DNA from: Micrococcus luteus NCTC 2665 | Lineage (GTDB): Bacteria > Actinomycetota > Actinomycetes > Actinomycetales > Micrococcaceae | Length of the DNA stretch: 32,000 nucleotides | Direction: 5' to 3' | Assembly: GCF_000023205.1 (NCBI RefSeq) | Contig: NC_012803.1 | Coordinates: 660,001-692,000 of the forward strand | In this document: piece after piece, positions 4,984-21,158 of the stretch | Layout: each line of letters begins with the position of its first letter | Numbering within the stretch: position 1 is the first letter of the stretch | Position numbers and translations under genes: made by a program | The notes under the pieces: model-generated | What the model saw: the letters and a program-made list of their open reading frames with translations, nothing else | The model's database searches: none | Told to the model about the DNA's origin: nothing

Positions 4984-4984
4984 C

Positions 4985-6651: not shown

Positions 6652-6703
6652 CGCACCGGACCCGCCCGACGACGGCGCCACGGCCGCCCGCCGGGGCGCC
6701 GGC

Positions 6704-6958
6704 TCAGGCCTGCTCGGCCTGGACGACGAACGCCTCTCCGGCGAACTCGACGACGTCCCCGTCGTGCAGCTGGGCGCCGCGGCGCGTCTCCACCGCGCCG
6801 TTGACGGTGACGAGCCCGTCGGTGACGACGTCGCGGGCCATGGCCCCGTCGTCCACGAGGGAGGCGAGCTTGAGCGCCTGGCCGAGGCGGATGGACTCGT
6901 CACGGATGGGCAGGGGCTGGGCGTCGGGTGCGTTCGTCTCGGTCATGGTGTCCATCAT
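6704..6958 (-). CDS. RNA-binding S4 domain protein (YbcJ-like)
   Basis: Only the last 84 codons of the 442-aa ORF 6704..8032 look real: MMDTMTETNAPDAQPLPIRDESIRLGQALKLASLVDDGAMARDVVTDGLVTVNGAVETRRGAQLHDGDVVEF. This is an S4-fold pattern. The rest of that ORF is antisense to glyQS. Confidence 0.7.
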   Translation of the reverse strand: MMDTMTETNAPDAQPLPIRDESIRLGQALKLASLVDDGAMARDVVTDGLVTVNGAVETRRGAQLHDGDVVEFAGEAFVVQAEQA

Positions 6959-7087
6959 GGCCGGTAGGCTGGACGGGATCGACCGGCGCGCCGCGCCGGA
7001 ACGGGCCCGCCGCGTCGAAGGCGGCCGGGTGCCGTCGTCGTCGTGATCCCCTCCCGCCCCGCCGATGAGTACGGAAGTGATGCCTCC

Positions 7088-9603: not shown

Positions 9604-10235
9604 ACCGGGCGGCCGTAGCGGACCGCCGGCGCGCCCGCGCCCTGCGGGGCACGGTCCTGGCGGTGGCCCTGCTCAACGGCGCCTACCTGGTGGTCGAGAT
9701 CATCCTGGCCCTGGGGATCGGCTCGGTGGCCCTCGTGGCGGACTCCGTCGACTTCTTCGAGGACTTCGCCGTCAACCTGCTGATCTTCGTGGCGCTCGGG
9801 TGGACGGCGGCCCGGCAGGCGGTCATCGGCAAGGTCATGGCCGGGGTCATCGTGCTCCCAGCCGTGGCGGCGCTCGTCATGGCGGCCACGAAGGTCGGGG
9901 ACCCCGACCCGCCGGCCGCGGGCGTGCTGCTGGGGGTGGCCGTCGGCTCGATCCTCGTGAACCTCGTGTGCGTGGTCCTGCTGGCCCGCGTCCGCGTCGA
10001 CGGCGGGTCCCTCACCCGGGCGGCCTGGCTCGCGGCGCGCAACGACCTCGTGGCCGGCGTCGTGCTGATCGCCCTGTCCGGGATCACGGTGCTGACGGCA
10101 TCGGGCTGGGCGGACATCATCGTGGGCGTGCTTCTCGTGCTGCTCAACGGCTCCGCCGCCAAGGAGATCTGGGAGGTCGCGACCGAGGAGCACCTGGCGG
10201 CCCGGGCCCTCGCCGGCGAGGTCGACGACGACTGA
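9600..10235 (+). CDS. cation diffusion facilitator-like cation transporter (membrane domain only, about 211 aa)
   Basis: This is the ORF 9219..10235 frame. GTG at 9600 overlaps the GNAT stop (GTGA). The protein reads [56 protein letters not shown]... and has about 5-6 TM segments. No C-terminal cytoplasmic CDF domain is visible. Confidence 0.6.
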   Translation: MNRAAVADRRRARALRGTVLAVALLNGAYLVVEIILALGIGSVALVADSVDFFEDFAVNLLIFVALGWTAARQAVIGKVMAGVIVLPAVAALVMAATKVGDPDPPAAGVLLGVAVGSILVNLVCVVLLARVRVDGGSLTRAAWLAARNDLVAGVVLIALSGITVLTASGWADIIVGVLLVLLNGSAAKEIWEVATEEHLAARALAGEVDDD

Positions 10236-10242
10236 GCAGTTC

Positions 10243-11556
10243 CTACGGGGTGGCGGGCAGCCGGGCGGCCAGCACCGCCCCGACGGCGGCCAGGCCCAGG
10301 AACACCGTCAGCGCCGGTGCCAGACCGACGGCGCCGGCCAGTGCCCCGACCGCCGGGCTGAGCCCGACCCCGGCCAGCCGCATGCACCAGCTCGTCACCG
10401 CCAGCCCGGTCTGCGGCCGGAGCCCGGGCGCCTCGTCGCCGAGCGCATAGGCCACGGGCACCACCACGGCGCAGCCCAGCCCCGCCAGCGCCAGCCCCGC
10501 GAACGCGGCAGGCACGGCCACCGGCCCCGGCAGCGGCGCCAGGGCCAGTCCCAGCCCCACGACGACGGCGCCCAGCCCCGCCGTCAGCGCCCCGCGGCGT
10601 CCCAGGGCGGCGAGGGTGCGGTCGCCCGCGAGGCGTCCGACGAACTGCGCGCCCAGCAGCGTCGACGCGCCGAGCACCGCCGCGGCCGGGTCCAGGCCGC
10701 GCTCGGTGATCAGGAACAGGGTGGCCCACGCGTTGCCGAACTCCTCCACACCGAACCCGGCCATCGCGATCACCACGGCGGGGACGAGCACGGCCACGGC
10801 GGCGCGGCGGGGGAGGGCTTGGGTGGCCGGGGCAGGCGGCGCGGACGTCTCCGACGGCGCGGGTGACTGATCCGAGGCGTCGCGGGCCGAGGCCGAGTCC
10901 GTGGGCGCCTCCGCCAGGAACAGGCGCCGGACCCCCAGCAGCACCGCGACGCACACGGCGCCGTTGAGGCCCAGGTGCAGGGCCGCGGGGCCGCCCACGG
11001 TGATGACCGCGGCGCCGAGCCCGGCACCGGCGGCCGCTCCGAGGCTCCAGCCGGCGTGCATGGTCGTGAGAACGGGCCGGGCCAGCCGGGTCTGCACCTG
11101 CAGGCCCTGCGCGTTCTGGGCGGTGTCCACAACGGCGTCGAGCACCCCCGATGCCAGGACGAGGCCCGCGAAGACCCACAGCGGCCAGGCCGCGGCCGTG
11201 CCCGCACCGTGCCCGGCCCCCGCGCCCGCCCCGGCGACGTCGAGGACGAGACCGGCCGCCGTCGTGAGCAGGGCGATGGCCACGCTGCCGGCGAGCATGA
11301 CGCGTCGGGCGCCGAACCGGCGCAGGATCGGCGCGGGCAGAGGCCCGGCGAGCGTGCCGCCCACGGCGAGCGCGATGACGAGCAGGCCGAACGCGGCCGG
11401 GTCCAGGCCGAACGCGGCCTTGGCCTCCGGGTAGTGCGGGATGAGCGCGCCGAGCAGGGCGCCGTTCGTCGCGAAGGCGGCGGTGACGGCCCAGCGCGCG
11501 CGACGGGCTCGGGTGAACCCGTCGGCGGCCGGAACGTGCGGCGCGGCCTGGCTCAT
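10243..11556 (-). CDS. MFS transporter
   Basis: This is the ORF 10243..12021 frame with ATG at 11556 (MSQAAPHVPAADGFTRARRARWAVTAAFATNGALLGAL...). It encodes a 437-aa polytopic, Ala/Gly/Leu-rich 12-TM-type protein. Its start overlaps the stop of the upstream LLM fragment by 4 nt. Confidence 0.75.
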   Translation of the reverse strand: MSQAAPHVPAADGFTRARRARWAVTAAFATNGALLGALIPHYPEAKAAFGLDPAAFGLLVIALAVGGTLAGPLPAPILRRFGARRVMLAGSVAIALLTTAAGLVLDVAGAGAGAGHGAGTAAAWPLWVFAGLVLASGVLDAVVDTAQNAQGLQVQTRLARPVLTTMHAGWSLGAAAGAGLGAAVITVGGPAALHLGLNGAVCVAVLLGVRRLFLAEAPTDSASARDASDQSPAPSETSAPPAPATQALPRRAAVAVLVPAVVIAMAGFGVEEFGNAWATLFLITERGLDPAAAVLGASTLLGAQFVGRLAGDRTLAALGRRGALTAGLGAVVVGLGLALAPLPGPVAVPAAFAGLALAGLGCAVVVPVAYALGDEAPGLRPQTGLAVTSWCMRLAGVGLSPAVGALAGAVGLAPALTVFLGLAAVGAVLAARLPATP

Positions 11557-12323
11557 GCATCCCAGCCGAGCAGGCGCCAGACCTCCGCCCAGCCGGCGAA
11601 GATCTTCGCGTTGTACTCGACCCCGAGCTGGTTGGGGTTGGCGAACAGGACCCAGTCGGCGGCGGCGACGGCGTCGTCGGCGGCGAGCTTCTCCGCGACC
11701 TCCTCGGCGGACCCGGCATAGGTCGGGCCGGAGCGGGCGGCGCCGCCCTCGAGCATGCCGGAGGAGTCGCGCGAGGCCCGCTCCCGGCCGAAGTACAGCT
11801 CGTCCTCCCGGTCCTGGATGACGAACGCGGAGCGCGTGACCGCCGTGCGGCCCGGACCGGCGTGGCCGGCCGCGGCGAAGGCCTCCCGGTAGCGGGCGAT
11901 CTGGTCGGCCTGCTGGACGTGGAAGGGGCGGCCGTCGTCCTGCAGGAGCAGGGTGGAGGAGAGCATGTTGTAGCCGTCCGCGGCGGCGCCGGCCACCGAG
12001 CCCACGGAGCCCGACCCCCACCAGATCCGGTCCGCGAGCCCGGGGGAGTACGGCTCGATCCGCAGCGGCTGCGAGCTGTGCGCCCAGCCGGAGGCGAGGT
12101 CCGGCGTCGCGATGCCCTCGCCGCGCACGGCCGCGAGGAAGCGGCGTCCGCGCTCGCGGGTCACGTCGGCCCAGGTCTGCCCCTCGTCGAGGGTGTAGCC
12201 GAACTGTGCCTGGCCGTCGAGGGCGGCCTCGGGTGAGCCGCGGGAGACGCCGAGCTCGAGCCGGCCACCGGAGATGAGGTCCGTGGTGGCCGCGGCCTCG
12301 GCCATGTACAGGGGGTTCTCATA
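11553..12323 (-). pseudogene. LLM class (luciferase-like) flavin-dependent oxidoreductase, C-terminal 256 codons, separated from its N-terminus by the inserted element
   Basis: This is the tail of the 1010-aa ORF 11553..14585: (Y)ENPLYMAEAAATTDLISGGRLELGVSRGSPEAALDGQAQFGY...GWAEVWRLLGWDA. The matching N-terminal 84 codons are at 20904..21158. The two parts join in frame (…GVIDLR|YENPLY…) to give about 340 aa. Confidence 0.8.
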
Positions 12324-12366
12324 GCGCATGTCGGGCTTGTGGCGTTGGTGCGACCGGCTCTGCCGT

Positions 12367-12756
12367 TTACAGGTACCGGCAGACCTGGTCCGCGCTGCAC
12401 GAGTCGGGGTCGGGCTGCGCGGCGTCGCGTCTGAGCTCGGTGATGGTGTCGCGCAGCGCGGCGAGCTGGGCGATCTGCTGCTCGATCTCGGCGAGGCGTG
12501 CGTCGAGGAGGTCGCGCACGTGCTCGCAGGGAGCAGCGCCGTCGTCGCGGATGTCGAGGATCTGGCGGATCTGGGCGAGGGTGAGGCCCGCGGCCTGGCC
12601 GCGGTGGACGAAGTCGATCCGGGCGGCCGTCTCGGGCGCGTAGTCGCGGTATCCGGACGGCGTGCGCTCGGCCGGCGGCAGCAGGCCCTGCTCCTCGTAG
12701 AACCGCAGCGTCTTCGCCGTCGTTCCCGCCCGCTCGGCGAGTTCCCCGATGCGCAT
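12367..12756 (-). CDS. merR: MerR family Hg(II)-responsive transcriptional regulator
   Basis: This 129-aa ORF has an N-terminal MerR wHTH (MRIGELAERAGTTAKTLRFYEEQGLL). It has three cysteines at positions 77, 120 and 126, spaced like the Hg-binding Cys of MerR. It is divergent from merA. Confidence 0.85.
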   Translation of the reverse strand: MRIGELAERAGTTAKTLRFYEEQGLLPPAERTPSGYRDYAPETAARIDFVHRGQAAGLTLAQIRQILDIRDDGAAPCEHVRDLLDARLAEIEQQIAQLAALRDTITELRRDAAQPDPDSCSADQVCRYL

Positions 12757-12789
12757 CGCAGGCCCCCTCTTCTTTCGGCAGAAGTCCTC

Positions 12790-12821
12790 TTGACCTTCCC
12801 CTGCACTGGAAGGTCCAGTAT
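12790..12821 (+). promoter_or_regulatory. MerR-type promoter/operator for merA
   Basis: The -35 is TTGACC (12790-12795), followed by a 20-bp spacer and the -10-like CAGTAT (12816-12821). The spacer holds a perfect dyad, GACCTTCC (12792-12799) and GGAAGGTC (12808-12815). A long spacer with an internal dyad is the hallmark of MerR-activated promoters. Confidence 0.6.
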
Positions 12822-12863
12822 GGCTGAGACAGACCGGAAGACCAAGTGTTGACAGGAGCTGCG

Positions 12864-14288
12864 ATGCCCACGAAGTACGACCTCGCTATCATCGGATCGG
12901 GCGGTGGTGCGTTCGCCGCCGCGATCCGCGCGACCACGCTCGGCAAGTCGGTGGTGATGATCGAGCGCGGGACGCTGGGCGGCACCTGCGTGAACACCGG
13001 CTGCGTGCCGTCGAAGGCCCTGATCGCCGCGGCCGACGCACGGCACTCCGCGGCCGACGCCGCCGACCGGTTCCCGGGGATCGCGACGACGGCGGGGCCG
13101 GTGGACATGCCCGCCCTGATCGCCGGGAAGCAGGCGCTGGTCGAGTCGCTGCGGGGCGAGAAGTACGCCGACGTCGCCGACTCCTACGGGTGGGCCGTCC
13201 GCCGCGGCGACGCCGCGTTCGCCGGCACCCCCGACGCTCCGGTCCTCCAGGTCGCCGGGGACGACGGCAGCACCGAGACGATCGAGGCCGGGCACTTCCT
13301 GGTGGCGACCGGCTCTCGGCCGTGGGCCCCGCCGATCGACGGCCTGGACGAGACCGGGTACCTGACCTCGACCACGGCGATGGAGCTGACCGAACTCCCT
13401 GAGTCCCTGCTCGTGCTCGGCGGCGGCTACGTCGCCCTGGAGCAGGCGCAGCTGTTCGCCCGGCTCGGCTCCCAGGTCACCGTGCTGGTCCGGTCCCGGC
13501 TCGCGTCGAAGGAGGAGCCGGAGGTGTCCAGGACGCTGGAGGAGGTGTTCGCCGACGAGGGCATCCGGGTGGTCCGCCGCGCGCTGCCGACGCGGGTGTC
13601 CCGCGACGCCGCGACCGGGCAGGCCGTCGTCACCGCGGACGTCGCCGGGGGGCGGGAGGAGTTCCGCGCCGACCAGGTGCTCGTCGCCCTCGGACGACGA
13701 CCGGTCACCGACGGGCTCGGCCTCGACAGGGTCGGGGTCGAGACCGGGGACCTCGGCGAGGTGGTCGTCTCCGACCGGATGCAGTCCTCCCACCCGCGGA
13801 TCTGGGCCGCGGGCGACGTGACCGGCCACCCTGAGTTCGTCTACGTCGCCGCCCACCACGGCACCCTCGTCGCCGAGAACGCGTTCGCCGACGCCGACCG
13901 GGCCGTGGACTACGCCCGACTGCCGAGGGTGACGTTCACCGGCCCGGCGATCGGCGCGGTCGGGATGACCGAGAAGGACGTCGTCGCCGCCGGGATCCGC
14001 TGCGACTGCCGCGTCCTGCCGCTGCACCACGTGCCCCGCGCACTGGTCAACCGCGACACCCGCGGCTTCGTCAAGATCGTCGTGGACGCCGACACCGGGA
14101 AGATTCTCGGCATCACCGCCGTCGCCAAGGACGCCGGCGAGCTCGCCGCCGCCGGGGTCCACGTGCTCGGCAAGACGGTCGCCGAGGTCGCCGACGCCTG
14201 GGCCCCCTACCTGACCATGGCCGAGGGCATCCGGATCGCCGCCAAGGCCTTCACCACCGATCCGTCGCTCCTGTCGTGCTGCGCGTGA
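12864..14288 (+). CDS. merA: mercury(II) reductase, core form without an N-terminal HMA (NmerA) domain
   Basis: This is the ORF 12846..14288 frame. ATG at 12864 is preceded by AGGAG at 12854-12858. The protein has an FAD motif (IIGSGGGAF), the redox-active pair GTCVNTGCVPSK, and a C-terminal vicinal Cys pair (...LLSCCA) diagnostic of MerA. Confidence 0.92.
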   Translation: MPTKYDLAIIGSGGGAFAAAIRATTLGKSVVMIERGTLGGTCVNTGCVPSKALIAAADARHSAADAADRFPGIATTAGPVDMPALIAGKQALVESLRGEKYADVADSYGWAVRRGDAAFAGTPDAPVLQVAGDDGSTETIEAGHFLVATGSRPWAPPIDGLDETGYLTSTTAMELTELPESLLVLGGGYVALEQAQLFARLGSQVTVLVRSRLASKEEPEVSRTLEEVFADEGIRVVRRALPTRVSRDAATGQAVVTADVAGGREEFRADQVLVALGRRPVTDGLGLDRVGVETGDLGEVVVSDRMQSSHPRIWAAGDVTGHPEFVYVAAHHGTLVAENAFADADRAVDYARLPRVTFTGPAIGAVGMTEKDVVAAGIRCDCRVLPLHHVPRALVNRDTRGFVKIVVDADTGKILGITAVAKDAGELAAAGVHVLGKTVAEVADAWAPYLTMAEGIRIAAKAFTTDPSLLSCCA

Positions 14289-14339
14289 ACGCGCACGCAG
14301 ACAATCGGGGGGAACGCTCAGCTGGGAGAGGAACAGACG

Positions 14340-14642
14340 ATGAGCGGCGATAAGGACCACGACTCGCATCGCGCGGGCGTGCTTGTCGGTGCTGGGACGG
14401 GCTTGCTCCTGTTGGCATGCTGCGCGCTTCCGCTGCTGATCTGCTGCGGCCTGCCTCTCCTCGCCGCGGGCGGAGCCCTCGCAGGTATCGGAGGTTTCCT
14501 CGGCAACCCTTGGCTCATCGGTGCCGGGATCGCAGTCGGGGTGGCCGTCACAGCGGCGATCGTCCTCCGGCGACTGCGGCGGCACCGACGTCGCTCGACC
14601 GGCTGCTGCGGCAATCGTTCGACTACTGACCGGGGTCAGTAG
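14340..14642 (+). CDS. MerF-like mercury transport membrane protein (two TM, vicinal cysteine pairs)
   Basis: This 100-aa ORF lies directly after merA. TM1 carries LLACCALPLLICCGLP (two CC pairs). A second TM is followed by a basic stretch and a C-terminal STGCCGN. The layout resembles MerF (CC in TM1, CC near the C-terminus). Confidence 0.65.
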   Translation: MSGDKDHDSHRAGVLVGAGTGLLLLACCALPLLICCGLPLLAAGGALAGIGGFLGNPWLIGAGIAVGVAVTAAIVLRRLRRHRRRSTGCCGNRSTTDRGQ

Positions 14643-14657
14643 TTCGAGTGGCTCCAG

Positions 14658-15560
14658 TCATCGTCGCCAGTTCGGCCACGTCGGCATCCCGCGACCCTTC
14701 CAGGTCTCCACGAGGCCAGCAACCCAGCGGACGGACGCGAAGACCCCGTAGCCGGCCGCCGCGAGGCCCGCGGCGATCACGAGCCAGCGCCCGATCCCGA
14801 GCCACACGCTACCGTCCACGTCCAGCGCCCACTGAGCGCCTGTGATGAGCCCAGCGATGCCCATCCAGAGCCCGGCGACGACCACCACCACCGGCAGGAG
14901 TGCGAGGCACATCGCGGCGGCGGCCGACCAGAGCTGACGGGCCTCCAGCTTCGCCGTGGCAGCGATGATCCGCTCGGCGCGCTCGTTCGATGCGTCGAGG
15001 TTTGCCGCGATCGTGGCAGACGCCTCCCCGGCGACCTGTTCGACGGCCTTCACGACTCGCTCCTCGGTGCGCTTTTCGATCCGCTGCACCGCGCCGCCGA
15101 CCTGGCTGACGAGCTTCTGGTTCGCCGCGGCCTGCGCCTTGAGCCCCTCAATCGCCGATGCCGTAGCCGCGTGATTCCTCTGCGCCTCCGCGACCAAGCT
15201 CTGCGACGCGGCGTTCAAGCTCTCGCCGTTGAGACTCTGCGCGAACTCGCCGAGCGTGCTCGCGATCTCGTTCAGCCTGCTCTCGATACTCGCGATCCTC
15301 GCGGACGCGTCGCTGGAGGGCGAGGAGGTCGACGCCGAGGCCGTGATCCGCTCCAGCCGCCTCGTCGTCTCCTCGTCCATGACCTTCACGAACCCTGCGA
15401 GCTTCTTCTGCTGCTCGGCCAGCCGGTCGAGCCTCGCGTTCTGCGCCTCGACGGCGGCGAGGATCGAGGTCAACGCCTCCATCGTCTCCGGACTGTCGAG
15501 CTGCTGCTGCGATCCGCTCTGCGCGTTCTGCTGCTTCAGCCTGTCGAGCGCTGCGCTCAT
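14658..15560 (-). CDS. coiled-coil protein with C-terminal transmembrane anchor, unknown function
   Basis: This is the ORF 14658..15779 frame with ATG at 15560. The protein reads MSAALDRLKQQNAQSGSQQQLDSPETMEALTSILAAVEAQNARLDRLAEQQKKL..., followed by two to three hydrophobic segments (LALLPVVVVVAGLWMGIAGLI, WLVIAAGLAAAGYGVFA). Third codon positions are almost all G/C in this frame where checked. The start is uncertain because it overlaps the relaxase ORF. Confidence 0.6.
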   Translation of the reverse strand: MSAALDRLKQQNAQSGSQQQLDSPETMEALTSILAAVEAQNARLDRLAEQQKKLAGFVKVMDEETTRRLERITASASTSSPSSDASARIASIESRLNEIASTLGEFAQSLNGESLNAASQSLVAEAQRNHAATASAIEGLKAQAAANQKLVSQVGGAVQRIEKRTEERVVKAVEQVAGEASATIAANLDASNERAERIIAATAKLEARQLWSAAAAMCLALLPVVVVVAGLWMGIAGLITGAQWALDVDGSVWLGIGRWLVIAAGLAAAGYGVFASVRWVAGLVETWKGRGMPTWPNWRR

Positions 15561-16434
15561 GTTCCTGCTCCTCCTGCTGCTGGTGATAGTCGAAGAACGC
15601 CTGCGCGCCCTCCGGGGTGAAGTCCGCCGAGAGTGCGCTCGCGCGCTTGCGGCGCTCGGCGCGTCCGGACTCGCCGCGGCGGTCCTCGATGTAGAGCGTC
15701 CAGGTCTCCTGCCCGGCGCGCTTGCCCTTCTTGCTGACGGGGCTGTGCAACCGCATCCGCAGCACCCGCTCCCCGTCATCGCCGCGCTGCTGGTTCTGCT
15801 CCTCGATCACCGCTTCGAGACCGGCCTTGTCCACCGCACGGGGATCAGCCAGGGCGGCGCTCATCCGGTCGCCCATCTCGCGGTCGAGCCTGCCCTCGGC
15901 GAAGTCCTCGCGGCGCAGCTCCCAGTCCTTCGGCGCGTGCTCCAGACGCTTCACGACCGAGAGACCGTGCTCGCGCATGAGCTCGTCGTTCGCTGACTGA
16001 ACGCCCCGCTGGTTCCCGGCCTTGCGGTCGTGGAACGTGCGATAGTCCGAGAGCGCCTTCCCCGTCCGATTGCTGTGGTTGATGACCAAGATGTGGTTGT
16101 GCGGCTTCTTCCCGCGTCCGTCCACATGGCTCACCACGAGGCAGTCCGCGTTGGGGTGCATCTTCTTCGCGAGCTGGTAACCCAGATCGTTCACCCGCTG
16201 CACGTCCTCAGGATTCTTTGGGTCGAACTCGTCGTCGCTGAACGACTGCCTGTAGTGCAGCGCCTCGACGTCACGCTTCGTGTTCTGGGTGAGCGCGCGG
16301 GCGCGCGCCGAGAACGCGCCGGGGCCTCCCGGCACGTCGCCCGTGATCGCGACGCCGCGCTCGTCCTCCTTGCCCCGGATGTAGCGCTCGGTGTCGGCGG
16401 CGTTGGCGCTCGGACTGTAATGCGTCGTGCTCAT
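15148..16434 (-). CDS. relaxase/mobilization nuclease (MobA/VirD2 family); real coding probably ends near 15560
   Basis: The 428-aa ORF has a relaxase N-terminal domain (EALHYRQSFSDDEF, and the histidine triad SHVDGRGKKPHNHILVINH). After about residue 292 the frame turns into an R/E/A/G-rich tail with many A/T third positions, and it overlaps the better-looking coiled-coil frame. Confidence 0.8.
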   Translation of the reverse strand: MSTTHYSPSANAADTERYIRGKEDERGVAITGDVPGGPGAFSARARALTQNTKRDVEALHYRQSFSDDEFDPKNPEDVQRVNDLGYQLAKKMHPNADCLVVSHVDGRGKKPHNHILVINHSNRTGKALSDYRTFHDRKAGNQRGVQSANDELMREHGLSVVKRLEHAPKDWELRREDFAEGRLDREMGDRMSAALADPRAVDKAGLEAVIEEQNQQRGDDGERVLRMRLHSPVSKKGKRAGQETWTLYIEDRRGESGRAERRKRASALSADFTPEGAQAFFDYHQQQEEQEHERSARQAEAAERAERIAAAARQSGDDGGVDLDPRRRRGAEREARPAGRAAEEARRVREGHGRGDDEAAGADHGLGVDLLALQRRVREDREYREQAERDREHARRVRAESQRRELERRVAELGRGGAEESRGYGIGD

Positions 16435-17021
16435 GAGGCCGCCCGATCCCCGAGCAGCGCGCGGACCTCGTGCAGCAGCTCGATCAGCTCGGGCACCTCC
16501 GCCGACAGCGCCACCGGCTCACCCGCGCGAGCACGGCGGTCCAGGTCGTTGACGTTGATCGCGAGCGGGCGCACCTGGGCGGCCAGCTCCCGAGCATCAG
16601 CAGACGCCTGCACGCGCTCCTCGACCCCGAGCAGCTGCGCGGCCACGGCGGCATCCAGCTCCTCGCTCCGAGAGGCGTGCAGGGCATCGCGCACGACGGT
16701 CCGCACCCACGTGCTCGGAGCCAGCCCGAGCCGCTTCGCACGAGTGCGAAGCGCCGCGAGCGTGGCGTCATCGAAGCGGGTGTCGAGCCTCCCGCCGCCC
16801 CCACGACGACGCTTCGCGCCGCCGTGACTCTGGCGCACAGCCTCCGCATCAGCCCGACCGGTGTTCACCTGGGAGTCGGTCTGCTGCTCCACCTGTACGC
16901 CAGAGTGGCAAGCAGTAGCCGTGTCGGACGTTTCGCTGGCGCTCATGTCCTCCCCGGCTGCTTGCGAGGGGCCTCCGGCCCCCTCGACCCCCTGGAAGAG
17001 CGCATCGCGTTCGGTGCTCAT
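16431..17021 (-). CDS. mobC: MobC-like relaxosome accessory protein
   Basis: This 196-aa ORF has an RHH-like segment (RLDTRFDDATLAALRTRAKRLGLAPSTWVRTVVRDAL) and a MobC-like segment (LRPLAINVNDLDRRA). Its stop overlaps the relaxase ATG (ATGA). Confidence 0.7.
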   Translation of the reverse strand: MSTERDALFQGVEGAGGPSQAAGEDMSASETSDTATACHSGVQVEQQTDSQVNTGRADAEAVRQSHGGAKRRRGGGGRLDTRFDDATLAALRTRAKRLGLAPSTWVRTVVRDALHASRSEELDAAVAAQLLGVEERVQASADARELAAQVRPLAINVNDLDRRARAGEPVALSAEVPELIELLHEVRALLGDRAAS

Positions 17022-18430
17022 GCGGCACCTCCGATCAGCGCCAGCGGCACGTCAGGGCTCCGCACCGCGAGCCCACCCAGCAGCTCAGCAACCGCGCCCT
17101 CCGCATCATGTTCGGCCGAGGTCTCCGGGCCGTAGGTCAGTTCCCGCGACCCGACGTTCTGGTGGTACGCGTTGCCGTACATACCGGGCGTGTGCGCGGC
17201 GGTCGGAACGCTGCACTGGTGCCACTCGTAGGGCTCGATCTTCCCGATGTGCTGCACGAGGTAACGATTGATGTCGTCGGCACGATAGACCTTCACGACC
17301 GAGGCCAGCCGGCGGATGAACTGGTCCAGCGCCTCGTCCACGTTGCCCTTCTGGCGGGCGTAGTAGAAGAACTCGACGGGCTCGATCGTCGCCGTGATGA
17401 CGATGAGGCGCGGGGCGACCTCGCCCTTGTTCTTGTAGCGGGCCTTCGCAGGCGAGGCGTTGTACGGATCGAGCAGCAGCAGCCAGTCGTTCGCATCCAT
17501 CGCCGAGGCCCGCAGATCGTCCAGCAGCAGCACTTCCTCGCCCCGCCAGTCATCAAGCGGGTTCCCCGTCGCGGCCCGGTAGACCTGCCACCGCTCGCCG
17601 TGCGCGTTCGCCGCGTTGATCGCCTCGGTAATGAAGTCCGTGGCGAACCGGGTCTTGCCGATCCCGGCATCCCCATGGACGAACACCACGTGCGTCGAGA
17701 ACTCACCGGCGCGCAGCTTCGCCGCCGCCCGGTATGCGCGACGCTGGCCGTAGGCCGACAGCGCGTCGTCGATCTCCCGCTGATGCCGCGAGTAGATATC
17801 GAACAGCTCGTCCGTGAGCATGATCTGATCCCGCGTGATCTCACCTTGGAGAACGCGCTCCCGCATGTCCTCGAAGTTCTCGGCGACGATCTTCTTCTTC
17901 ACGTGGGCGCGGCCCTTCAGCCACGTCTCCCGGCGCTGGGCGTCGATCCCGAGGTAGTCAGGCCCACGCACCGTGGCGACCTCCGAAGGCGCGTACTGGT
18001 GCTTGTCCGCGTACTTCACGTGCGTCAGATACGACAGCATGTTGTCGAAGGCGTACCGCCCGCGGCCAGGCTTCTCGACGTACTGGGGCTCGACGCCGAT
18101 GCCGAACGCGAGCCGATCCAGCGGCGCACTCTTCGCACGGCTGGCGAACTTGATCACGGCGTGCAGGTGCTCGGGCTTCGGTTCGACCACCAGGGCCTTA
18201 TCCGTGTCACTCCAGACCTCGCGCTCGTCCCTGTCGTGCACGATGCCGTAGGCCTCGACGACCTGGCAGCCGGTGGCCTCGAGCCGCTGCACCACGTAGG
18301 CGAGGATCGCCTCGGCACCCTGCTGGAGCAGCGCGGCCCCGTTCGGGTCCTCGGCAGCCCAGGCCCAGTACGACGGATCGAGGTACTGCGTGAGCCCGAT
18401 GCTCGTCGGGTTGTTCTCCTGCTTAGCCAC
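17018..18430 (-). CDS. rep: replication initiator: HUH-type Rep (pMV158 RepB-like HDxD and HxH motifs) fused to a P-loop NTPase domain
   Basis: This is the ORF 17018..18664 frame, with GTG at 18430 preceded by GGGGGTGGTCGCC. The protein has GIVHDRDE ... PEHLHAVIKF (HUH) ... LSYLTHVKY, then Walker A (HGDAGIGKT) and Walker B-like (VLLLDD). Its stop overlaps the mobC ATG by 4 nt. The 78 codons upstream of 18430 are R/P-rich and were rejected. Confidence 0.75.
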   Translation of the reverse strand: MAKQENNPTSIGLTQYLDPSYWAWAAEDPNGAALLQQGAEAILAYVVQRLEATGCQVVEAYGIVHDRDEREVWSDTDKALVVEPKPEHLHAVIKFASRAKSAPLDRLAFGIGVEPQYVEKPGRGRYAFDNMLSYLTHVKYADKHQYAPSEVATVRGPDYLGIDAQRRETWLKGRAHVKKKIVAENFEDMRERVLQGEITRDQIMLTDELFDIYSRHQREIDDALSAYGQRRAYRAAAKLRAGEFSTHVVFVHGDAGIGKTRFATDFITEAINAANAHGERWQVYRAATGNPLDDWRGEEVLLLDDLRASAMDANDWLLLLDPYNASPAKARYKNKGEVAPRLIVITATIEPVEFFYYARQKGNVDEALDQFIRRLASVVKVYRADDINRYLVQHIGKIEPYEWHQCSVPTAAHTPGMYGNAYHQNVGSRELTYGPETSAEHDAEGAVAELLGGLAVRSPDVPLALIGGAA

Positions 18431-18782
18431 GGCGACCACCCCCGCCGCGGGCGGCGCGGAGGGCCTCAGAGGGAGTGCGGCGCCTAAATGACCCCCTATT
18501 GACCCCCAAATGAGACCCCATATGATCCCGCGGGACCACGCGACGGAGCGAGGGCGGAACAGGCCGCTGACCAGGCATGTTGTTGCAAGGCGCGGCAATC
18601 GACAAGCCCTTGCCGCGCCCGTAGGAACGAATGAGGGTCTCGTAACTCTTGGAGTGCGAAGCACGGCTACGGGCAGCCATCACGACGACGGGCAGCCCGC
18701 CTTCGGCGGGTGCCAGGCCAGGCCCTCCGGGCGGGGTCAGGTTGGTGGGAGCGGTGCTGAGGTTGCGTGCGTCGGCGTACAT
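18423..18782 (-). CDS. hypothetical basic protein (119 aa), possibly translationally coupled; may instead be non-coding origin DNA
   Basis: ATG at 18782 overlaps the stop of the HTH ORF, using the same 17-nt junction seen at 19030. The codon bias is mixed. The 3' part contains the iteron-like repeats. Confidence 0.3.
   Translation of the reverse strand: MYADARNLSTAPTNLTPPGGPGLAPAEGGLPVVVMAARSRASHSKSYETLIRSYGRGKGLSIAAPCNNMPGQRPVPPSLRRVVPRDHMGSHLGVNRGSFRRRTPSEALRAARGGGGRRG
18486..18529. repeat. four phased iteron-like direct repeats upstream of rep
   Basis: The copies are AAATGACCCCC (18486-18496), TATTGACCCCC (18497-18507), AAATGAGACCCC (18508-18519) and ATATGATCCC (18520-18529). The period is 11-12 bp. 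They sit in a locally AT-richer stretch 56-99 nt upstream of the rep start. Confidence 0.55.
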
Positions 18783-19030
18783 CAGCGACCACCGCCCCGG
18801 CCGTAGCGCTTGATGACAGCCTGATGCGTGACGCCGAGGGCGTCGCCGATCCTGGCCCAGGTCACCCCATCGGCTCGGGCGTCGGCGACGGCGATCTCGA
18901 CGGCCTCCTCCAGCACAGAGCGGAGCACGCCGAGGTCGTAGAGCTGGGCCTCGGCGTCGGCGAGGGACGGGTCGCCCTGACGCCAGCGGAAGCCGGTCAA
19001 GTGATCGAAGGCGGCGGAGTTCGCGCTCAT
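18782..19030 (-). CDS. helix-turn-helix DNA-binding protein (82 aa)
   Basis: The ORF has good GC3. A C-terminal HTH-like segment reads GVTWARIGDALGVTHQAVIKRYG. The start overlaps the upstream ORF stop (ATGA). Confidence 0.6.
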   Translation of the reverse strand: MSANSAAFDHLTGFRWRQGDPSLADAEAQLYDLGVLRSVLEEAVEIAVADARADGVTWARIGDALGVTHQAVIKRYGRGGGR

Positions 19031-19242
19031 CAGCGACCACCGCCCATCACAGAGGCAACGGCGGCGCGCTGGCGCGGGGTCAGCGGAGTGAGTGCCAGGC
19101 GCTCACCGGCTCGGCGGCCAGCGGCGCGGGCGGCGGCGATGACGGGATCGTGGCCGTCTGCCTGCGGAGAAGGAGCGGAGCCCTGATCGAGGCCAGGGCG
19201 GACGAGCGCGGATGCGCGGGGAACGTCGATAACGACAGACAT
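19030..19242 (-). CDS. hypothetical protein (70 aa), first gene of the element's leftward operon
   Basis: ATG at 19242 has GAGGA 6 nt upstream on the minus strand (...CTGAGGACTTCCGATG). The stop overlaps the next start. No family was recognised. Confidence 0.45.
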   Translation of the reverse strand: MSVVIDVPRASALVRPGLDQGSAPSPQADGHDPVIAAARAAGRRAGERLALTPLTPRQRAAVASVMGGGR

Positions 19243-19381
19243 CGGAAGTCCTCAGACATGAGTATCTTCCGGTTCCCCGCCACGGTAATTGGGCTGTTTG
19301 ACCGGCTACTCATCCGGGAGCAGAACCCCGCGCTTCTAAGTCGCGGCCCCGGTGGGATCTTCTTGTCTGCAACCATTCTTC

Positions 19382-19421
19382 CATGACTCGACTCACCAGT
19401 GCAATGACGAGTCGAGTCATG
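19382..19421 (-). terminator. 13-bp perfect stem hairpin immediately after the recombinase stop
   Basis: CATGACTCGACTC (19382-19394) pairs with GAGTCGAGTCATG (19409-19421) around a 14-nt loop. It lies 2 nt downstream of the recombinase stop (19424-19426). There is no clear U-tract. Confidence 0.5.
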
Positions 19422-19423
19422 AG

Positions 19424-20860
19424 TCAGTCGCGTCTCGGCTCGATCCGCACGAGATCGGGGTCGAACTTCACGTGACCCGGCATGATGGGCTCGATGGTCA
19501 CCGTCACCAGCTCGTCCACGAGCATCCGGCGACGGTCCATGTCCAACGCCTTCCACTTCGACTCGACAACCTCGCGGCGCTCCGCGGTGCCGACCGGCTC
19601 ATCGACCTCCGCCAGCAGCTTCGCCGCCACCGACACCGAGCGGTCGAGCAGCTCCGCGTCGATCTCGTCGATGCGAGCCTTCACGTCGTTGATCGCCGCC
19701 GTGATCTCCAGGACCGGCTGATGGATGTCGCGCAGCAGCGGGCTCAGCGCCTTCACCCGCTCGACCAGGGCGTTCCGCTCGGTCAGCAGTTCCTCGCGAT
19801 CCGGCCCGGCGGCTTCCTGCGGCATCACGAGGTCGTGCACGTCCACGGACGACAGGCGCGTGAGCACCGCCTCGGTGACCATCGCATCGACGGGCTCGCG
19901 CTGGCGGGTGAGATGGAACTGCTCGCCACAACAGTACGTCGGCTGCTTGCGGCTGTTCGTCCCCGAGACGAGCGTCGCGCCGCACTTCCCACAGAGGCCG
20001 ATCGTGGACAGGAGGTACTTCGGCTGATTGCCCTGCCTCGCCGACCTCCGCACGTTGTCCTCCAGCTTCGCCACCGCGGCCCGCCACGTCTGCTCGCCGA
20101 CGATGGGCGGGAACGCCTCGCCCTGCACCGGGTACAGCTCGCCGGTCTTGTAGTGGCGGATGAAGCCAGCGTAGAGCGAGTTCGCCAGCAGATACCGCAC
20201 AGCATCGACGGAGAACTCCGACCCGCGGGCGGTGAGGTGGCCAGCGCTGTTCAAGTCCTCCCGGATGCGACGGATCGACAGCGACGGCTCACCGAGGAAC
20301 GCATCGAAGGCCCGCCGAACTGCGGCGGCCTCCTCCTCGATCAGCTCGCCCTCCCTCGTCCAACCGAACGCCTTCCAGGTGGACGCCGGGATGCCTTCGG
20401 CGCGGCGGCGCTCATTCGACCTGATCTGCCGCTCCGCCTTGCGTCGAGCCTCGAACCGGGCGAGAGCGGCGAGCATCGTCGCTCGGAACTCTCCGTCGGC
20501 CGTCGAGAGGTCGATCTCGCCGTCCACTGTGACGACGCGCAGGCCGAGGTCGATCAGCGTGTTGAGGTCCTTCGTGCTCCGCAGCAGTCGGTCCATGTCC
20601 ACGGCGACGACCATCGAGAATCGACCTGCTCGGGCGTCGTCCAACATCTCGGCCCAGCGGGTGCCAGCTCGACGCTTCTTCGTCGCCGACACCGCGTTGT
20701 CCTCGTAGACCTCGACCACGTTCCAGTCCTTGGCCTCGGCCAATGCCCTGATCTTCCTCAGTTGTGTATCGACCGTCCAGCGGTCGCCTTTGCGGTCCAT
20801 GGAGGCGCGGACGTAGGCCGCCACCTCGTTCGTCTTCCTCAGCGCTACCAGTTCGACCAT
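19424..20860 (-). CDS. large serine recombinase (integrase)
   Basis: This 478-aa ORF has an N-terminal resolvase domain (AAYVRASMDRK... with the catalytic Ser, and MVVAVDMDRLLRS), then a recombinase domain. It also has a zinc-ribbon-like LCGKCGATL...YCCG and a C-terminal coiled coil. It lies next to the element end. Confidence 0.9.
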   Translation of the reverse strand: MVELVALRKTNEVAAYVRASMDRKGDRWTVDTQLRKIRALAEAKDWNVVEVYEDNAVSATKKRRAGTRWAEMLDDARAGRFSMVVAVDMDRLLRSTKDLNTLIDLGLRVVTVDGEIDLSTADGEFRATMLAALARFEARRKAERQIRSNERRRAEGIPASTWKAFGWTREGELIEEEAAAVRRAFDAFLGEPSLSIRRIREDLNSAGHLTARGSEFSVDAVRYLLANSLYAGFIRHYKTGELYPVQGEAFPPIVGEQTWRAAVAKLEDNVRRSARQGNQPKYLLSTIGLCGKCGATLVSGTNSRKQPTYCCGEQFHLTRQREPVDAMVTEAVLTRLSSVDVHDLVMPQEAAGPDREELLTERNALVERVKALSPLLRDIHQPVLEITAAINDVKARIDEIDAELLDRSVSVAAKLLAEVDEPVGTAERREVVESKWKALDMDRRRMLVDELVTVTIEPIMPGHVKFDPDLVRIEPRRD

Positions 20861-20903
20861 GCAACCAAGCTTACGTGGACGAGTGTTGCAACCCCGACAT
20901 GCG

Positions 20904-21158
20904 CTACCGCAGGTCGATCACGCCGGTGCCGAGGCTGATCCGCTCGGTGCGGGCGGCCATCGCGGCGAGGATCGGGAACGGCGAGGAGAACATCCGCTGG
21001 AAGTGGTGGACGCGCAGCCAGGCGCCGTCGAGCCCGGCGTCCTCGGCGGCCACGGCCATGGGGACGACGTCGTCGAGGGCCTGCCGCGCGTCCGGTTCGG
21101 CGCCGGGCCGGTGGATCCAGTGGCCGAAGTTGAGGAAGCCGAGGTGCTTGCGGGTCAT
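20904..21158 (-). pseudogene. LLM class flavin-dependent oxidoreductase, N-terminal 84 codons ending at a junction-created TAG
   Basis: This is the ORF 20904..21446 frame with ATG at 21158. The protein reads MTRKHLGFLNFGHWIHRPGAEPDARQALDDVVPMAVAAEDAGLDGAWLRVHHFQRMFSSPFPILAAMAARTERISLGTGVIDLR*, a typical LLM N-terminus. The stop TAG is made of the TA core plus the first element base. Confidence 0.8.

What the first reader, a model, noticed from the sequence alone, without database searches (positions are those of the whole stretch)
12322..20906. 8.58-kb integrative mobilizable element splits an LLM oxidoreductase gene, and attP reconstructs as a perfect 26-bp palindrome
The N-terminal 84 codons (21158->20904) and C-terminal 256 codons (12323->11553) of one luciferase-like oxidoreductase are separated by 8.58 kb. 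On the gene strand the right junction reads ATCGACCTGCGG-TA-GCGCATGTCGGGGTTGC. The left junction reads CACAAGCCCGACATGCGC-TA-TGAGAACCCC. Removing the insert gives ...GVIDLR-YENPLY..., an in-frame LLM sequence of about 340 aa. Joining the element ends gives CCCGACATGCGC-TA-GCGCATGTCGGG. This has perfect 12-bp inverted arms around a TA core, and the arms extend imperfectly to about 16 bp. That is the architecture expected for a serine-integrase attP with a 2-bp crossover. The attB and attP half-sites share 10 of 14 positions next to the core. Cargo and backbone together (serine recombinase, RC-type Rep, MobC/relaxase, mer genes, no transfer machinery) define a compact actinobacterial integrative mobilizable element. 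I cannot assign it to a named family.
Basis: partly seen in the sequence, partly recalled or inferred. Interest (0 to 1): 0.8.

Follow-up and report, generated by a model that had tools for sequence, protein, structure and literature searches.

The report
Serine-recombinase mercury element splitting an oxidoreductase gene
An 8.6-kb mobile element carrying mercury-resistance genes has been cut into one exact spot of a Micrococcus luteus enzyme gene by its own serine recombinase, and close relatives sit at that same spot, facing either way, in about 70 other actinobacterial species.

Summary
Window 12322-20906 is an 8,585-bp insert, TA at both ends, that splits a 340-aa LLM oxidoreductase gene. 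Joining the flanks through one TA restores the reading frame. A Micrococcus metagenome scaffold carries exactly that uninterrupted junction. The element ends join into CCCGACATGCGC-TA-GCGCATGTCGGG, a perfect 12+2+12 palindrome.

The 478-aa recombinase has full large-serine-recombinase architecture. Recombinases 87-100% identical occur in about 75 species-level genomes across several actinobacterial orders. In 68 of these the homology to the element starts exactly at the TA. In 64 the flank is the LLM codon motif GVIDMR-Y-ENPLY. Twenty-six insertions face the same way as in the window and 38 face the opposite way. Every attP subtype with two or more members occurs in both orientations, as expected for a symmetric TA crossover.

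The backbone is the recombinase, a CRESS-like HUH-helicase Rep (pCRESS4 type), a MobA/VirD2-type relaxase and accessory genes. Cargo varies: mercury here; cadmium-type ATPase, efflux pumps or a phosphotransferase elsewhere.

No circular form was found. Excision and transfer are inferred. I found no paper describing this family.

The parts
11553..12321 (-). C-terminal part of the split LLM oxidoreductase gene. With the TA at 12322-12323 it gives 256 codons plus stop.
   Evidence: Annotated elsewhere as a 258-aa LLM fragment.
12322..12323 (.). TA at the left junction. On the gene strand this is attR = P arm-TA-B' arm. It is the proposed 2-bp crossover and the first two bases of the Tyr codon.
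   Evidence: TA is present at both junctions in 48/48 fully delimited relatives.
12324..12347 (.). Element end distal to the recombinase (attP 'P' arm): GCGCATGTCGGGCTTGTGGCGTTG.
   Evidence: Family consensus.
12367..12756 (-). MerR-family metal-responsive regulator, 129 aa.
   Evidence: Pfam MerR / MerR-DNA-bind, E 1e-18 to 5e-20. Below the NCBIfam MerR equivalog cut-off.
12864..14288 (+). merA, mercury(II) reductase, 474 aa.
   Evidence: NCBIfam TIGR02053 at 551 bits against a cut-off of 454. Gene call.
14340..14642 (+). 100-aa Cys-rich membrane protein, a possible Hg(II) transporter.
   Evidence: Only a weak MerC hit (E 0.004, below cut-off). Conserved next to merA on an M. luteus plasmid.
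14658..15560 (-). 300-aa backbone protein of unknown role, with a coiled-coil N-terminal part and hydrophobic C-terminal segments.
   Evidence: No significant Pfam hit. Conserved in 53 family members.
15148..16434 (-). Relaxase ORF with a MobA/VirD2-like nuclease domain. Coding signal is convincing only from 16434 down to about 15560.
   Evidence: Pfam PF03432, E 1e-13. GC3 profile. Frame relation conserved in 52/53 relatives.
16431..17021 (-). 196-aa accessory protein upstream of the relaxase, a possible ribbon-helix-helix relaxosome component.
   Evidence: Weak NikA-like hit, E 0.007, below cut-off.
17018..18439 (-). Rep: HUH nuclease (HLH and YLTH motifs) fused to an SF3 helicase (GIGKT), 473 aa.
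   Evidence: Pfam Rep_OBD and RNA_helicase. 37% identity to Lactococcus 4-kb plasmid Reps, plus phytoplasma plasmid Reps. PDB hits to 'replication-associated protein' chains and to an 'ATP-dependent helicase Rep' chain (7lar). pCRESS4/YLxH group of PMC6668415.
18423..19242 (-). Three small ORFs (119, 82 and 70 aa) between rep and the recombinase gene. The 82-aa one is a weak HTH. They are candidates for regulator or directionality factor.
   Evidence: Gene calls. HTH_23 at E 0.0014, below cut-off.
19382..19421 (.). 40-bp palindrome (20-nt arms, 85% complementary) immediately after the recombinase stop codon. Likely a terminator or other hairpin.
19424..20860 (-). Large serine recombinase, 478 aa.
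20881..20904 (.). Element end next to the recombinase gene (attP P' arm). On the gene strand it reads GCGCATGTCGGGGTTGCAACACTC.
20905..20906 (.). TA at the right junction. On the gene strand this is attL = B arm-TA-P' arm.
20907..21158 (-). N-terminal 84 codons of the split LLM gene.

Best explanation
This is an integrated copy of a small integrative mobilizable element. Its own large serine recombinase inserted it by conservative site-specific recombination between a near-palindromic attP of about 50 bp and an attB inside an LLM oxidoreductase gene. Exchange occurs at a 2-bp TA core, the first two bases of the Tyr codon in the motif GVID(M/L)R-Y-ENPLY.

Because TA is its own reverse complement and the attP arms are nearly identical, the reaction has no polarity. 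The element can enter, or be flipped, in either orientation.

Inferred life cycle:
1. The recombinase, possibly with one of the small upstream ORF products, rejoins attL and attR at TA. This releases an 8,583-bp circle and restores the LLM gene.
2. The CRESS-like HUH-helicase Rep replicates the circle by a rolling-circle mechanism.
3. The MobA/VirD2-type relaxase nicks an unidentified oriT, and the element is transferred through the conjugation pore of a co-resident conjugative element.
4. In the new host the recombinase integrates the element at the conserved LLM motif.

The cargo slot here holds merR, merA and a small Cys-rich membrane protein, which should confer inorganic mercury resistance.

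Shown: junctions, empty site, protein architectures, family-wide target and end conservation, both orientations, recent inter-genus spread. Inferred: catalytic activity, excision, replication, mobilization.
For: - **Junctions and empty site.** Exact junctions and an in-frame restored gene. The exact empty site occurs in a natural Micrococcus scaffold, and presence/absence varies within M. luteus.
- **Recombinase architecture.** The recombinase has the catalytic, recombinase and zinc-ribbon/coiled-coil architecture of serine integrases.
- **Spread.** About 75 genomes hold recombinases 87-100% identical. The backbone is 88-95% identical and the cargo variable.
- **Ends and target.** Homology starts at the TA in 68 genomes. 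The flanks are the LLM motif in 64 of them.
- **Delimited insertions.** 48 insertions are fully delimited, at 6.7-9.9 kb, all with TA at both ends.
- **Orientation.** The split is 26:38, not different from 1:1 (binomial p = 0.17). All nine attP subtypes with two or more members occur in both orientations.
- **Experimental precedent.** Published A118 integrase experiments show that a symmetric core dinucleotide lets att sites synapse in either orientation (PMC3556126).
- **Recent transfer.** Copies 97-100% identical sit in Micrococcus, Nesterenkonia, Brachybacterium and Aestuariimicrobium. Their flanks differ: no alignment beyond the element in Nesterenkonia and Aestuariimicrobium, about 100-140 bp of conserved LLM gene in Brachybacterium. 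In M. luteus MAW843 the element is 99.8% identical but inverted relative to syntenic flanks that are only 79-90% identical.
- **Other modules.** Relaxase domain. Rep of the pCRESS4 type.
Against: - No circular attP junction was found. The metagenome scan returned only integrated B-TA-P' junctions, and IMG/VR returned nothing. The metagenome pattern was not attP-specific, and assemblies rarely capture excised circles.
- No close relative of the recombinase is on any PLSDB plasmid; the best is 33%. A free replicating form has therefore not been seen.
- oriT, the replication origin and a directionality factor are not identified.
- The relaxase ORF changes coding frame about two thirds of the way along, so its intactness is uncertain.
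- Sequence alone cannot separate orientation-free integration from in-situ inversion after integration.
- Target specificity is not absolute. Two insertions lie in other genes (L010 in a DapA-like gene, and L072).
Confidence: 0.85

Rival explanations
1. A non-autonomous or unusual cut-and-paste transposon with terminal inverted repeats that duplicates a TA target, as IS630/Tc1-mariner elements do. On this view the recombinase gene is merely cargo.
For: The surface anatomy is the same: 12-24-bp inverted ends and TA on both sides, with one TA in the empty site.
Against: No DDE transposase or any other recombinase ORF lies in the 8.6 kb. The serine recombinase gene always sits about 45 bp from one end and is the most conserved part of the element. 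Insertion is at one motif of about 30 bp in 64 of 68 genomes. TA-targeting DDE transposons, to my knowledge, use any TA.
Confidence: 0.03
2. An integrating rolling-circle plasmid (an 'integrated pCRESS4 plasmid') that uses the serine recombinase to park in the chromosome but is not mobilized by conjugation. Spread between genera would occur by transformation, vesicles or transduction, and the relaxase would be defective or serve replication.
For: Rep is a plasmid/CRESS-type initiator, and most such Reps are reported in integrated plasmids (PMC6668415). The relaxase ORF shows a frame switch in coding signal. No oriT was identified. The accessory protein hit is weak.
Against: The relaxase N-terminal domain is 86-99% conserved in 53 relatives, with the same gene order. 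That argues for selection on it. PF03432 is a conjugative relaxase domain. The distribution across several orders with near-identical copies is what conjugative mobilization gives.
Confidence: 0.12
3. Integration has a fixed polarity, and the two orientation classes arise only afterwards. Either the recombinase inverts the element in situ (attL x attR aligned the 'wrong' way), or the surrounding chromosome has rearranged.
For: With a symmetric core, A118 integrase gave about half inversions (PMC3556126). Inversion and opposite-orientation integration give identical products here.
Against: The same symmetry that permits inversion also permits either orientation of integration, so nothing imposes a fixed polarity. 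In M. luteus MAW843 the flanks are syntenic with the window while the element is reversed, which rules out chromosomal rearrangement. This is a sub-variant of the main explanation rather than an alternative to it.
Confidence: 0.1
4. A host-recombinase hitch-hiker (XerC/D-type 'IMEX'). On this view the palindromic joint is a dif-like site and the serine recombinase is irrelevant.
For: The joint is a short palindrome with a small central region.
Against: Architecture is 12+2+12. To my knowledge dif sites are 11+6+11. The target is inside a coding motif of an LLM gene, not a chromosome dimer-resolution site. The element encodes a complete serine integrase beside the site.
Confidence: 0.01

Closest known systems
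Tn4451/Tn4453 of Clostridium (TnpX large serine recombinase, TnpZ mobilization protein)
   Same: A small chromosomal element that a single large serine recombinase integrates and excises through a circular intermediate with a 2-bp crossover. It carries its own mobilization gene and a resistance cargo but no transfer apparatus. PMC5704250 describes it as the only well-characterized serine-recombinase IME.
   Different: From my own knowledge, Tn4451 uses a GA core, has a MobV-type protein and lacks a Rep. This element uses a symmetric TA, a PF03432 relaxase and a CRESS-like Rep, and it targets one coding motif. The recombinases are only distantly related: a C. difficile 'putative conjugative transposon recombinase' catalytic domain matches at E 3e-7.
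Site-specific serine-recombinase IMEs of streptococci (for example those integrated in rumA)
   Same: IMEs with one serine recombinase that integrate inside a dispensable, conserved host gene in several species, flanked by very short repeats (PMC5704250).
   Different: Different phylum, target gene and recombinase lineage. I did not find either-orientation use of the site reported for them in the passages read.
Phage serine integrases (Bxb1, PhiC31, A118/Listeria LI)
   Same: Same protein architecture by structure comparison. The imperfectly palindromic attP is about 50 bp, attB is shorter and less symmetric, and the crossover is 2 bp.
   Different: At most 35% identity to any phage integrase in GenBank phages. 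The characterized integrases I know of use asymmetric core dinucleotides that fix orientation (PMC3556126, for A118 GG). This family uses TA. It also sits on a plasmid-like mobilizable element, not a phage.
pCRESS4 integrated plasmids (YLxH supergroup Reps; e.g. GorMal-E1 of Gordonia malaquae), Kazlauskas et al. 2019
   Same: Same Rep type: HUH nuclease with the YLxH motif fused to an SF3 helicase. Their Rep tree includes Reps from Actinomyces sp. MS2 and relatives. These are probably from elements of this family, because L065 is from that strain. This link is an inference.
   Different: That paper describes integration mainly by tyrosine integrases into tRNA genes with direct repeats. GorMal-E1 is 10.9 kb, intergenic, with a 36-bp repeat. 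It does not describe a serine recombinase, the LLM target or the relaxase module.
IME2287 of Rhodococcus equi
   Same: A proposed self-replicative actinobacterial IME with a serine recombinase and inverted repeats at its ends (PMC10669575).
   Different: It is 14.3 kb with RepA/RepB/ParA, a different inverted repeat, a 4-nt direct repeat and no relaxase. It was found inserted at a random position in one isolate.

Membership tests
Large serine recombinase (serine integrase) | N-terminal resolvase-type catalytic domain with the serine nucleophile | tested here: met
   Pfam Resolvase, E 8e-24, residues 13-156. R18 and S20 (YVRAS) are nearly invariant in 29 homologues. TP901-1 integrase catalytic domain matches at E 3e-9.
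Large serine recombinase (serine integrase) | C-terminal recombinase domain plus zinc-ribbon domain with an inserted coiled coil | tested here: met
   Pfam Recombinase, E 2e-12. C290, C293 and C311 are invariant. The AlphaFold model (pLDDT 79.9) has strands at 296-320 followed by long helices at 355-404. Foldseek matches full-length Bxb1, PhiC31 and the LSR-DNA complex 4kis at E 1e-18 to 1e-11.
Large serine recombinase (serine integrase) | attP x attB exchange at a central 2-bp overlap, so that sequence switches from host to element exactly at the dinucleotide | tested here: met
   Comparative evidence only. TA is at both junctions, there is one TA in the empty site, and homology breaks at the TA in 68 genomes. 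Cleavage positions were not measured.
Large serine recombinase (serine integrase) | Recombination activity of the protein on its att sites | not testable with these tools
   Needs in vitro or in vivo assays.
Integrative mobilizable element (IME) | Own integration/excision module and defined att ends | tested here: met
Integrative mobilizable element (IME) | Own relaxase and/or oriT | tested here: inconclusive
   The PF03432 relaxase domain is present (E 1e-13) and conserved. oriT was not identified, and the ORF tail lacks coding signal.
Integrative mobilizable element (IME) | No coupling protein or mating-pore genes of its own | tested here: met
   All ORFs of 90 aa or more were examined. None hit T4SS, T4CP or FtsK/TraB families.
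Integrative mobilizable element (IME) | Demonstrated excision and helper-dependent transfer | not testable with these tools
   Indirect support only: near-identical copies in four genera and presence/absence within M. luteus.
Tn4451/Tn4453 family | TnpX-type recombinase, GA crossover, MobV-type TnpZ (family features from my own knowledge) | tested here: not met
   The core is TA. The relaxase is PF03432. The recombinase is only remotely similar to clostridial ones. It works like this family but is not a member.
pCRESS4 / YLxH-supergroup Rep (PMC6668415) | HUH nuclease with YLxH in motif III, fused to an SF3 helicase | tested here: met
   The sequence shows EHLHAVI, SYLTH and GDAGIGKT. Pfam Rep_OBD plus RNA_helicase. 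Nearest plasmid Reps are Lactococcus and phytoplasma. Motif definition. Placement in pCRESS4 is inferred from the paper's tree, not recomputed.
TA-duplicating DDE transposon (IS630/Tc1-mariner type) | DDE transposase gene, or dependence on one | tested here: not met
   No such ORF in the element.
Narrow-spectrum mer operon | MerA reductase with a MerR-type regulator and an Hg(II) uptake protein; no merB | tested here: inconclusive
   MerA is above the equivalog cut-off (551 vs 454 bits). The regulator is MerR-family but below the MerR equivalog cut-off. The 100-aa membrane protein has only a weak MerC hit. No merB was seen.

The most novel reading that the evidence does not exclude
This is a natural large-serine-recombinase system that has given up polarity. 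Three sequence features support the reading:
- a symmetric TA core;
- near-identical attP arms;
- an attB half-site (ATCGACATGCGC) that matches the attP arms at 10 of 12 positions.

One enzyme could then integrate in either orientation, flip the element in place, and recombine with junctions of resident copies to build head-to-head arrays. A joint of that kind, rc(P')-TA-P', is present in Brevibacterium linens L043.

By reading a codon motif conserved across the phylum, the family acts as a very broad-host-range shuttle for resistance cassettes in Actinomycetota. Its recombinase/att pair would be a ready-made landing-pad tool for these bacteria.
Probability: 0.45. Interest if true: 0.7.

Novelty: new variant of a known kind. 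Interest (0 to 1): 0.6.

Why it matters
A 2017 review counted only one IME in Actinobacteria, and few serine-recombinase IMEs have been characterized (PMC5704250). This window gives an exactly delimited member of a family present in about 75 species-level genomes. These include skin, oral, dairy and environmental genera such as Micrococcus, Corynebacterium, Brevibacterium, Actinomyces, Gordonia and Kocuria.

The family moves mercury, cadmium-type ATPase, efflux-pump and phosphotransferase cassettes. Copies 97-100% identical are shared between orders. It is therefore a concrete route for metal- and drug-resistance flow in a phylum where such routes are poorly mapped.

Mechanistically, it is a natural test of the rule that the core dinucleotide alone sets integration polarity. 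A symmetric TA coincides with a near 1:1 use of both orientations.

It also links CRESS-like Rep 'integrated plasmids' to a serine-recombinase and relaxase backbone.

Tried and rejected
- **Free or plasmid-borne form.** Megablast of the element against PLSDB found only the mer module. tblastn of the recombinase found nothing above 33%.
- **Circular junction.** One metagenome scan gave six hits, all integrated B-TA-P' junctions, because my pattern also matched the attB half-site. An attP-specific pattern found nothing in IMG/VR. Among fetched loci, with up to 2 mismatches allowed, it matched only positions I assigned to integrated junctions.
- **Second inverted end on the M. luteus plasmid NZ_CP043850.1.** None lies within 12 kb of the mer module. 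I treat it as a fossil end, not a second element.
- **Literature.** Eight searches on serine recombinase, IME, Actinobacteria, LLM, mercury, ISBli29, pCRESS and symmetric core found no description of this family. The M. luteus genome paper is not held.
- **DDE-transposon and Xer readings.** Rejected for lack of the enzymes and because of the coding-motif target.
- **Relaxase family.** No solved-structure relative by sequence and no NCBIfam model.
- **Directionality factor among the small ORFs.** Only a sub-threshold HTH hit.

Full report
**1. The observation**

The window is Micrococcus luteus chromosome. Positions 9424-30860 are 100% identical to LS483396.1.

On the + strand the insert begins at TA 12322-12323, followed by GCGCATGTCGGGCTTGTGG. 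It ends with GTTGCAACCCCGACATGCGC, followed by TA 20905-20906.

On the minus strand, 84 codons of a luciferase-like (LLM) oxidoreductase run from 21158 to 20907. A further 256 codons run from 12323 to 11553. Left flank + one TA + right flank gives an uninterrupted 1,023-nt frame...GVIDLR-Y-ENPLY.... Pfam scores it as Bac_luciferase at E 2e-31.

The two element ends, joined through one TA, give CCCGACATGCGC-TA-GCGCATGTCGGG. The arms match 12/12, 13/14 and 17/24. The 18-nt end motif occurs exactly twice in the window, against 0.04 expected from shuffles with up to three mismatches allowed. G+C falls from about 0.75 in the flanks to about 0.69 inside the element.

**2. The empty site exists**

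A search with the rejoined protein found a 98%-identical full-length protein whose 90% cluster has 569 members. These include 340-aa intact and 258-aa truncated proteins annotated in M. luteus strains.

The DNA of one intact gene was retrieved as L009. It has the same ankyrin-repeat neighbour as the window and is 97.5% identical to the rejoined flanks. It contains the exact string GACCTGCGGTATGAGAACC.

The element is therefore a precise insertion that is polymorphic in the species.

**3. Gene content**

| Window coordinates | Strand | Product | Evidence |
|---|---|---|---|
| 12367-12756 | - | MerR-family regulator | Pfam MerR families |
| 12864-14288 | + | MerA | TIGR02053, 551 bits, cut-off 454 |
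| 14340-14642 | + | 100-aa Cys-rich membrane protein | weak MerC hit only |
| 14658-15560 | - | 300-aa coiled-coil/membrane protein | no family assigned |
| 15148-16434 | - | relaxase ORF | PF03432, E 1e-13 |
| 16431-17021 | - | 196-aa protein | sub-threshold NikA-like hit |
| 17018-18439 | - | Rep | Rep_OBD + SF3 helicase |
| 18423-19242 | - | three small ORFs | one weak HTH |
| 19424-20860 | - | 478-aa serine recombinase | Resolvase + Recombinase domains |

No DDE transposase, tyrosine recombinase, coupling protein or secretion genes are present.

**4. The recombinase is a large serine recombinase**

In an alignment of 29 homologues, S20 and R18 are nearly invariant and three cysteines (290, 293, 311) are invariant.

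The AlphaFold model has a mean pLDDT of 79.9. By Foldseek it matches full-length serine integrases in complex with att DNA: 9dxd, Bxb1 9iu2, PhiC31 9tep/9rah and Listeria 4kis, at E 8e-19 to 3e-11.

By sequence it is distant from anything characterized. The best matches are 35% to a phage integrase, 33% to a plasmid-borne recombinase, and sub-threshold hits to CcrB and XisF models.

**5. The Rep**

The sequence shows EHLHAVI (HUH), SYLTH and GDAGIGKT. Its nearest plasmid relatives are Reps of 4-kb Lactococcus plasmids (37%) and of phytoplasma plasmids. PDB sequence hits are to chains named 'replication-associated protein' and 'ATP-dependent helicase Rep'.

Kazlauskas et al. define a 'YLxH supergroup' (pCRESS4-8) of such Reps, mostly on integrated plasmids (PMC6668415). 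Their tree places Reps from Actinomyces sp. MS2, A. radicidentis and Saccharomonospora glauca in pCRESS4, next to GorMal-E1. One of my loci (L065) is from Actinomyces polynesiensis MS2, so these are probably the same elements. This is an inference.

The paper describes tyrosine-integrase elements in tRNA genes. It does not describe this recombinase, target or relaxase.

**6. A phylum-wide family with one target**

A scan of one genome per species found 81 stretches (75 distinct loci kept) encoding recombinases. Full-length matches are 87-100% identical. The genera include Micrococcus, Nesterenkonia, Kocuria, Rothia, Glutamicibacter, Brevibacterium, Brachybacterium, Microbacterium, Leucobacter, Janibacter, Actinomyces, Arachnia, Tessaracoccus, Aeromicrobium, Corynebacterium, Gordonia, Tsukamurella, Nakamurella and Thermocrispum.

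The recombinase-to-300-aa-gene backbone is 88-95% identical to the window's. The remaining 0.5-3.3 kb varies.

In all 68 genomes where the recombinase-proximal end is on the contig, homology starts exactly at the TA. In 64 of them the flank is the LLM motif.

Both ends could be placed in 48 genomes. The elements are 6,749-9,880 bp and all have TA at both ends.

- Reconstructed attB consensus: GGCACcGGcGTcATCGACATGCGc-TA-cGAGAACCCgCTgtAc (GTGVIDMR-Y-ENPLY).
- Reconstructed attP consensus: cAgnGctAcAACcCcGAcATGCGC-TA-GcGCATaTCGnGGTTGcAACaCcC. In some members the palindrome reaches 21 of 24 positions per arm, for example L055.

The attB left arm (ATCGACATGCGC) matches the attP arms at 10 of 12 positions. 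The right arm matches at only 4-5 of 14. As a result, attL in a typical host differs from attP at only two positions of a 29-nt pattern.

In the window the M. luteus attB is slightly off consensus (ATCGACCTGCGG).

**7. Both orientations**

Relative to the LLM gene, 26 insertions have the window's orientation and 38 the opposite. This does not differ from 1:1 (binomial p = 0.17). Each of the nine attP subtypes seen in two or more genomes occurs in both orientations.

The window's own subtype shows this. The window and Brachybacterium conglomeratum have one orientation. M. luteus MAW843 and Aestuariimicrobium have the other. In MAW843 the element is 99.8% identical while the syntenic flanks are only 79-90% identical.

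This is what a symmetric core predicts. For A118 integrase, making the core dinucleotide symmetric gave 52.5% deletion and 47.5% inversion. The authors concluded that the native asymmetric dinucleotide alone specifies directionality (PMC3556126).

Orientation-free integration and later in-situ inversion give the same products. Sequence cannot separate them.

**8. Mobility is recent**

Copies 97-100% identical lie in four genera of two orders. Their flanks differ: in Nesterenkonia and Aestuariimicrobium nothing aligns beyond the element, and in Brachybacterium only about 100-140 bp of conserved LLM gene does.

Specificity is high but not absolute. The Nesterenkonia copy sits in a DapA-like gene at VVVY|DNPTTTG, where the right half-site is TA-CGACAACCC, one mismatch from consensus. 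The Thermocrispum copy is in another gene.

**9. Cargo**

| Cargo | Example loci |
|---|---|
| mer genes | window; about 10 loci align with the window element along its full length at 87-91% identity |
| ArsR-type regulator + P-type ATPase | L029 |
| the same, with a signal peptidase II gene | L055, L069 |
| cation-diffusion facilitator | L049 |
| MFS transporters | L018, L058 |
| APH-family phosphotransferase | L032 |
| chorismate mutase | L037 |

One subgroup has a different 740-aa helicase-type Rep and a 309-aa protein in place of the rep-relaxase segment (L020 analysed; L044, L046, L050 and L059 share the same blastn gap).

**10. How it most likely works**

Shown:
- Site-specific, conservative insertion at TA.
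- A serine integrase is the only recombinase present.
- A conserved near-palindromic attP.
- A conserved coding attB.
- Both orientations.
- Recent spread between genera.

Inferred:
- Excision to an 8,583-bp circle.
- Rolling-circle replication by Rep.
- Nicking at an unidentified oriT by the relaxase, and transfer through a helper's pore.
- Mercury resistance from merA.

Weak points:
- No circular joint was seen in assemblies.
- No free plasmid form exists in PLSDB.
- No identified directionality factor.
- The relaxase ORF's last 130 or so codons lack coding signal. The 300-aa gene takes over in the +1 frame. This arrangement is kept in 52 of 53 relatives, and the two are fused in frame in one (L082).

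**11. Comparison and novelty**

The element works like Tn4451 and the streptococcal serine-recombinase IMEs. It has one large serine recombinase, a 2-bp crossover, its own mobilization gene, no transfer apparatus and a resistance cargo (PMC5704250).

It is not a member of those families. The core is TA, the relaxase is PF03432, the Rep is CRESS-like and the recombinase lineage is different.

I found no description of the family in eight literature searches. The 2017 review lists a single actinobacterial IME.

I rate it a new variant of a known kind. The mechanism class is established. The family, its LLM target, its breadth and its orientation-free behaviour appear undescribed.

**12. Verdict**

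- Observation: confirmed.
- Interpretation: supported and extended.
- Confidence that this is a serine-recombinase site-specific integrative element: about 0.85-0.9.
- Confidence that it is conjugatively mobilized: about 0.6-0.7.
- Interest: 0.6.

Noticed in passing
L001 (M. luteus plasmid NZ_CP043850.1) 12001-14256; window 12322-14590: A 104-kb M. luteus plasmid carries the same merR-merA-membrane-protein module at 86% identity. It starts exactly at a TA followed by the element's end arm (TAGCGCATATCGGGGTTGTAGCGTTGG), preceded by ...CCTTCTGA. No recombinase gene or second arm lies within 12 kb. It looks like a fossil end of a family member at a secondary site.
   Followed up: partly
L043 (Brevibacterium linens MA5) 4411-18740: The LLM site holds a composite with four parts: a degraded inverted copy carrying an ISL3 transposase; a head-to-head joint rc(P')-TA-P' at 8027; a 1.9-kb segment with GyrI-like and MerR genes; and an intact element. 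L034 and L073 also lack the LLM C-terminal flank at the distal end. This suggests recombination into junctions of resident copies.
   Followed up: partly
window 15148-15600; L082 13419-15188: The relaxase ORF and the 300-aa ORF overlap by 413 nt, and the coding signal (GC3) switches frame near 15560-15600. The same +1 offset occurs in 52 of 53 relatives. In Actinomyces stomatis (L082) the two are in one frame. This may be a frameshift-made fusion, or simply an ORF running on in G+C-rich DNA.
   Followed up: partly
window 19382-19421: A 40-bp palindrome (20-nt arms, 85% complementary, no spacer) lies directly after the recombinase stop codon. Its function was not examined.
   Followed up: no
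L010 9955/18538; L072 9955/16065; L025: Rare off-target insertions. Nesterenkonia aerolata has one in a DapA-like gene (VVVY|DNPTTTG) and Thermocrispum municipale has one in another gene. Kocuria carniphila (L025) has the LLM C-terminal flank on one side only.
   Followed up: partly
L020, L044, L046, L050, L059 (about 12176-15522 in each): A subgroup keeps the recombinase and the ends but replaces the rep-to-relaxase segment. In L020 the replacement encodes a 740-aa helicase-domain protein and a 309-aa protein. This indicates modular exchange within the family.
   Followed up: partly
L084 (Luteolibacter marinus, 860-bp contig): An element end plus an LLM flank occurs on a tiny contig of a Verrucomicrobiota assembly. 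This is most simply contamination by an actinobacterium, not a host-range extension.
   Followed up: no
cluster of P0001: Truncated or intact copies of this Micrococcus-type LLM protein are annotated under Rhodococcus rhodochrous, Kaistella montana and Microbacterium. These are probably mislabelled or contaminated assemblies.
   Followed up: no
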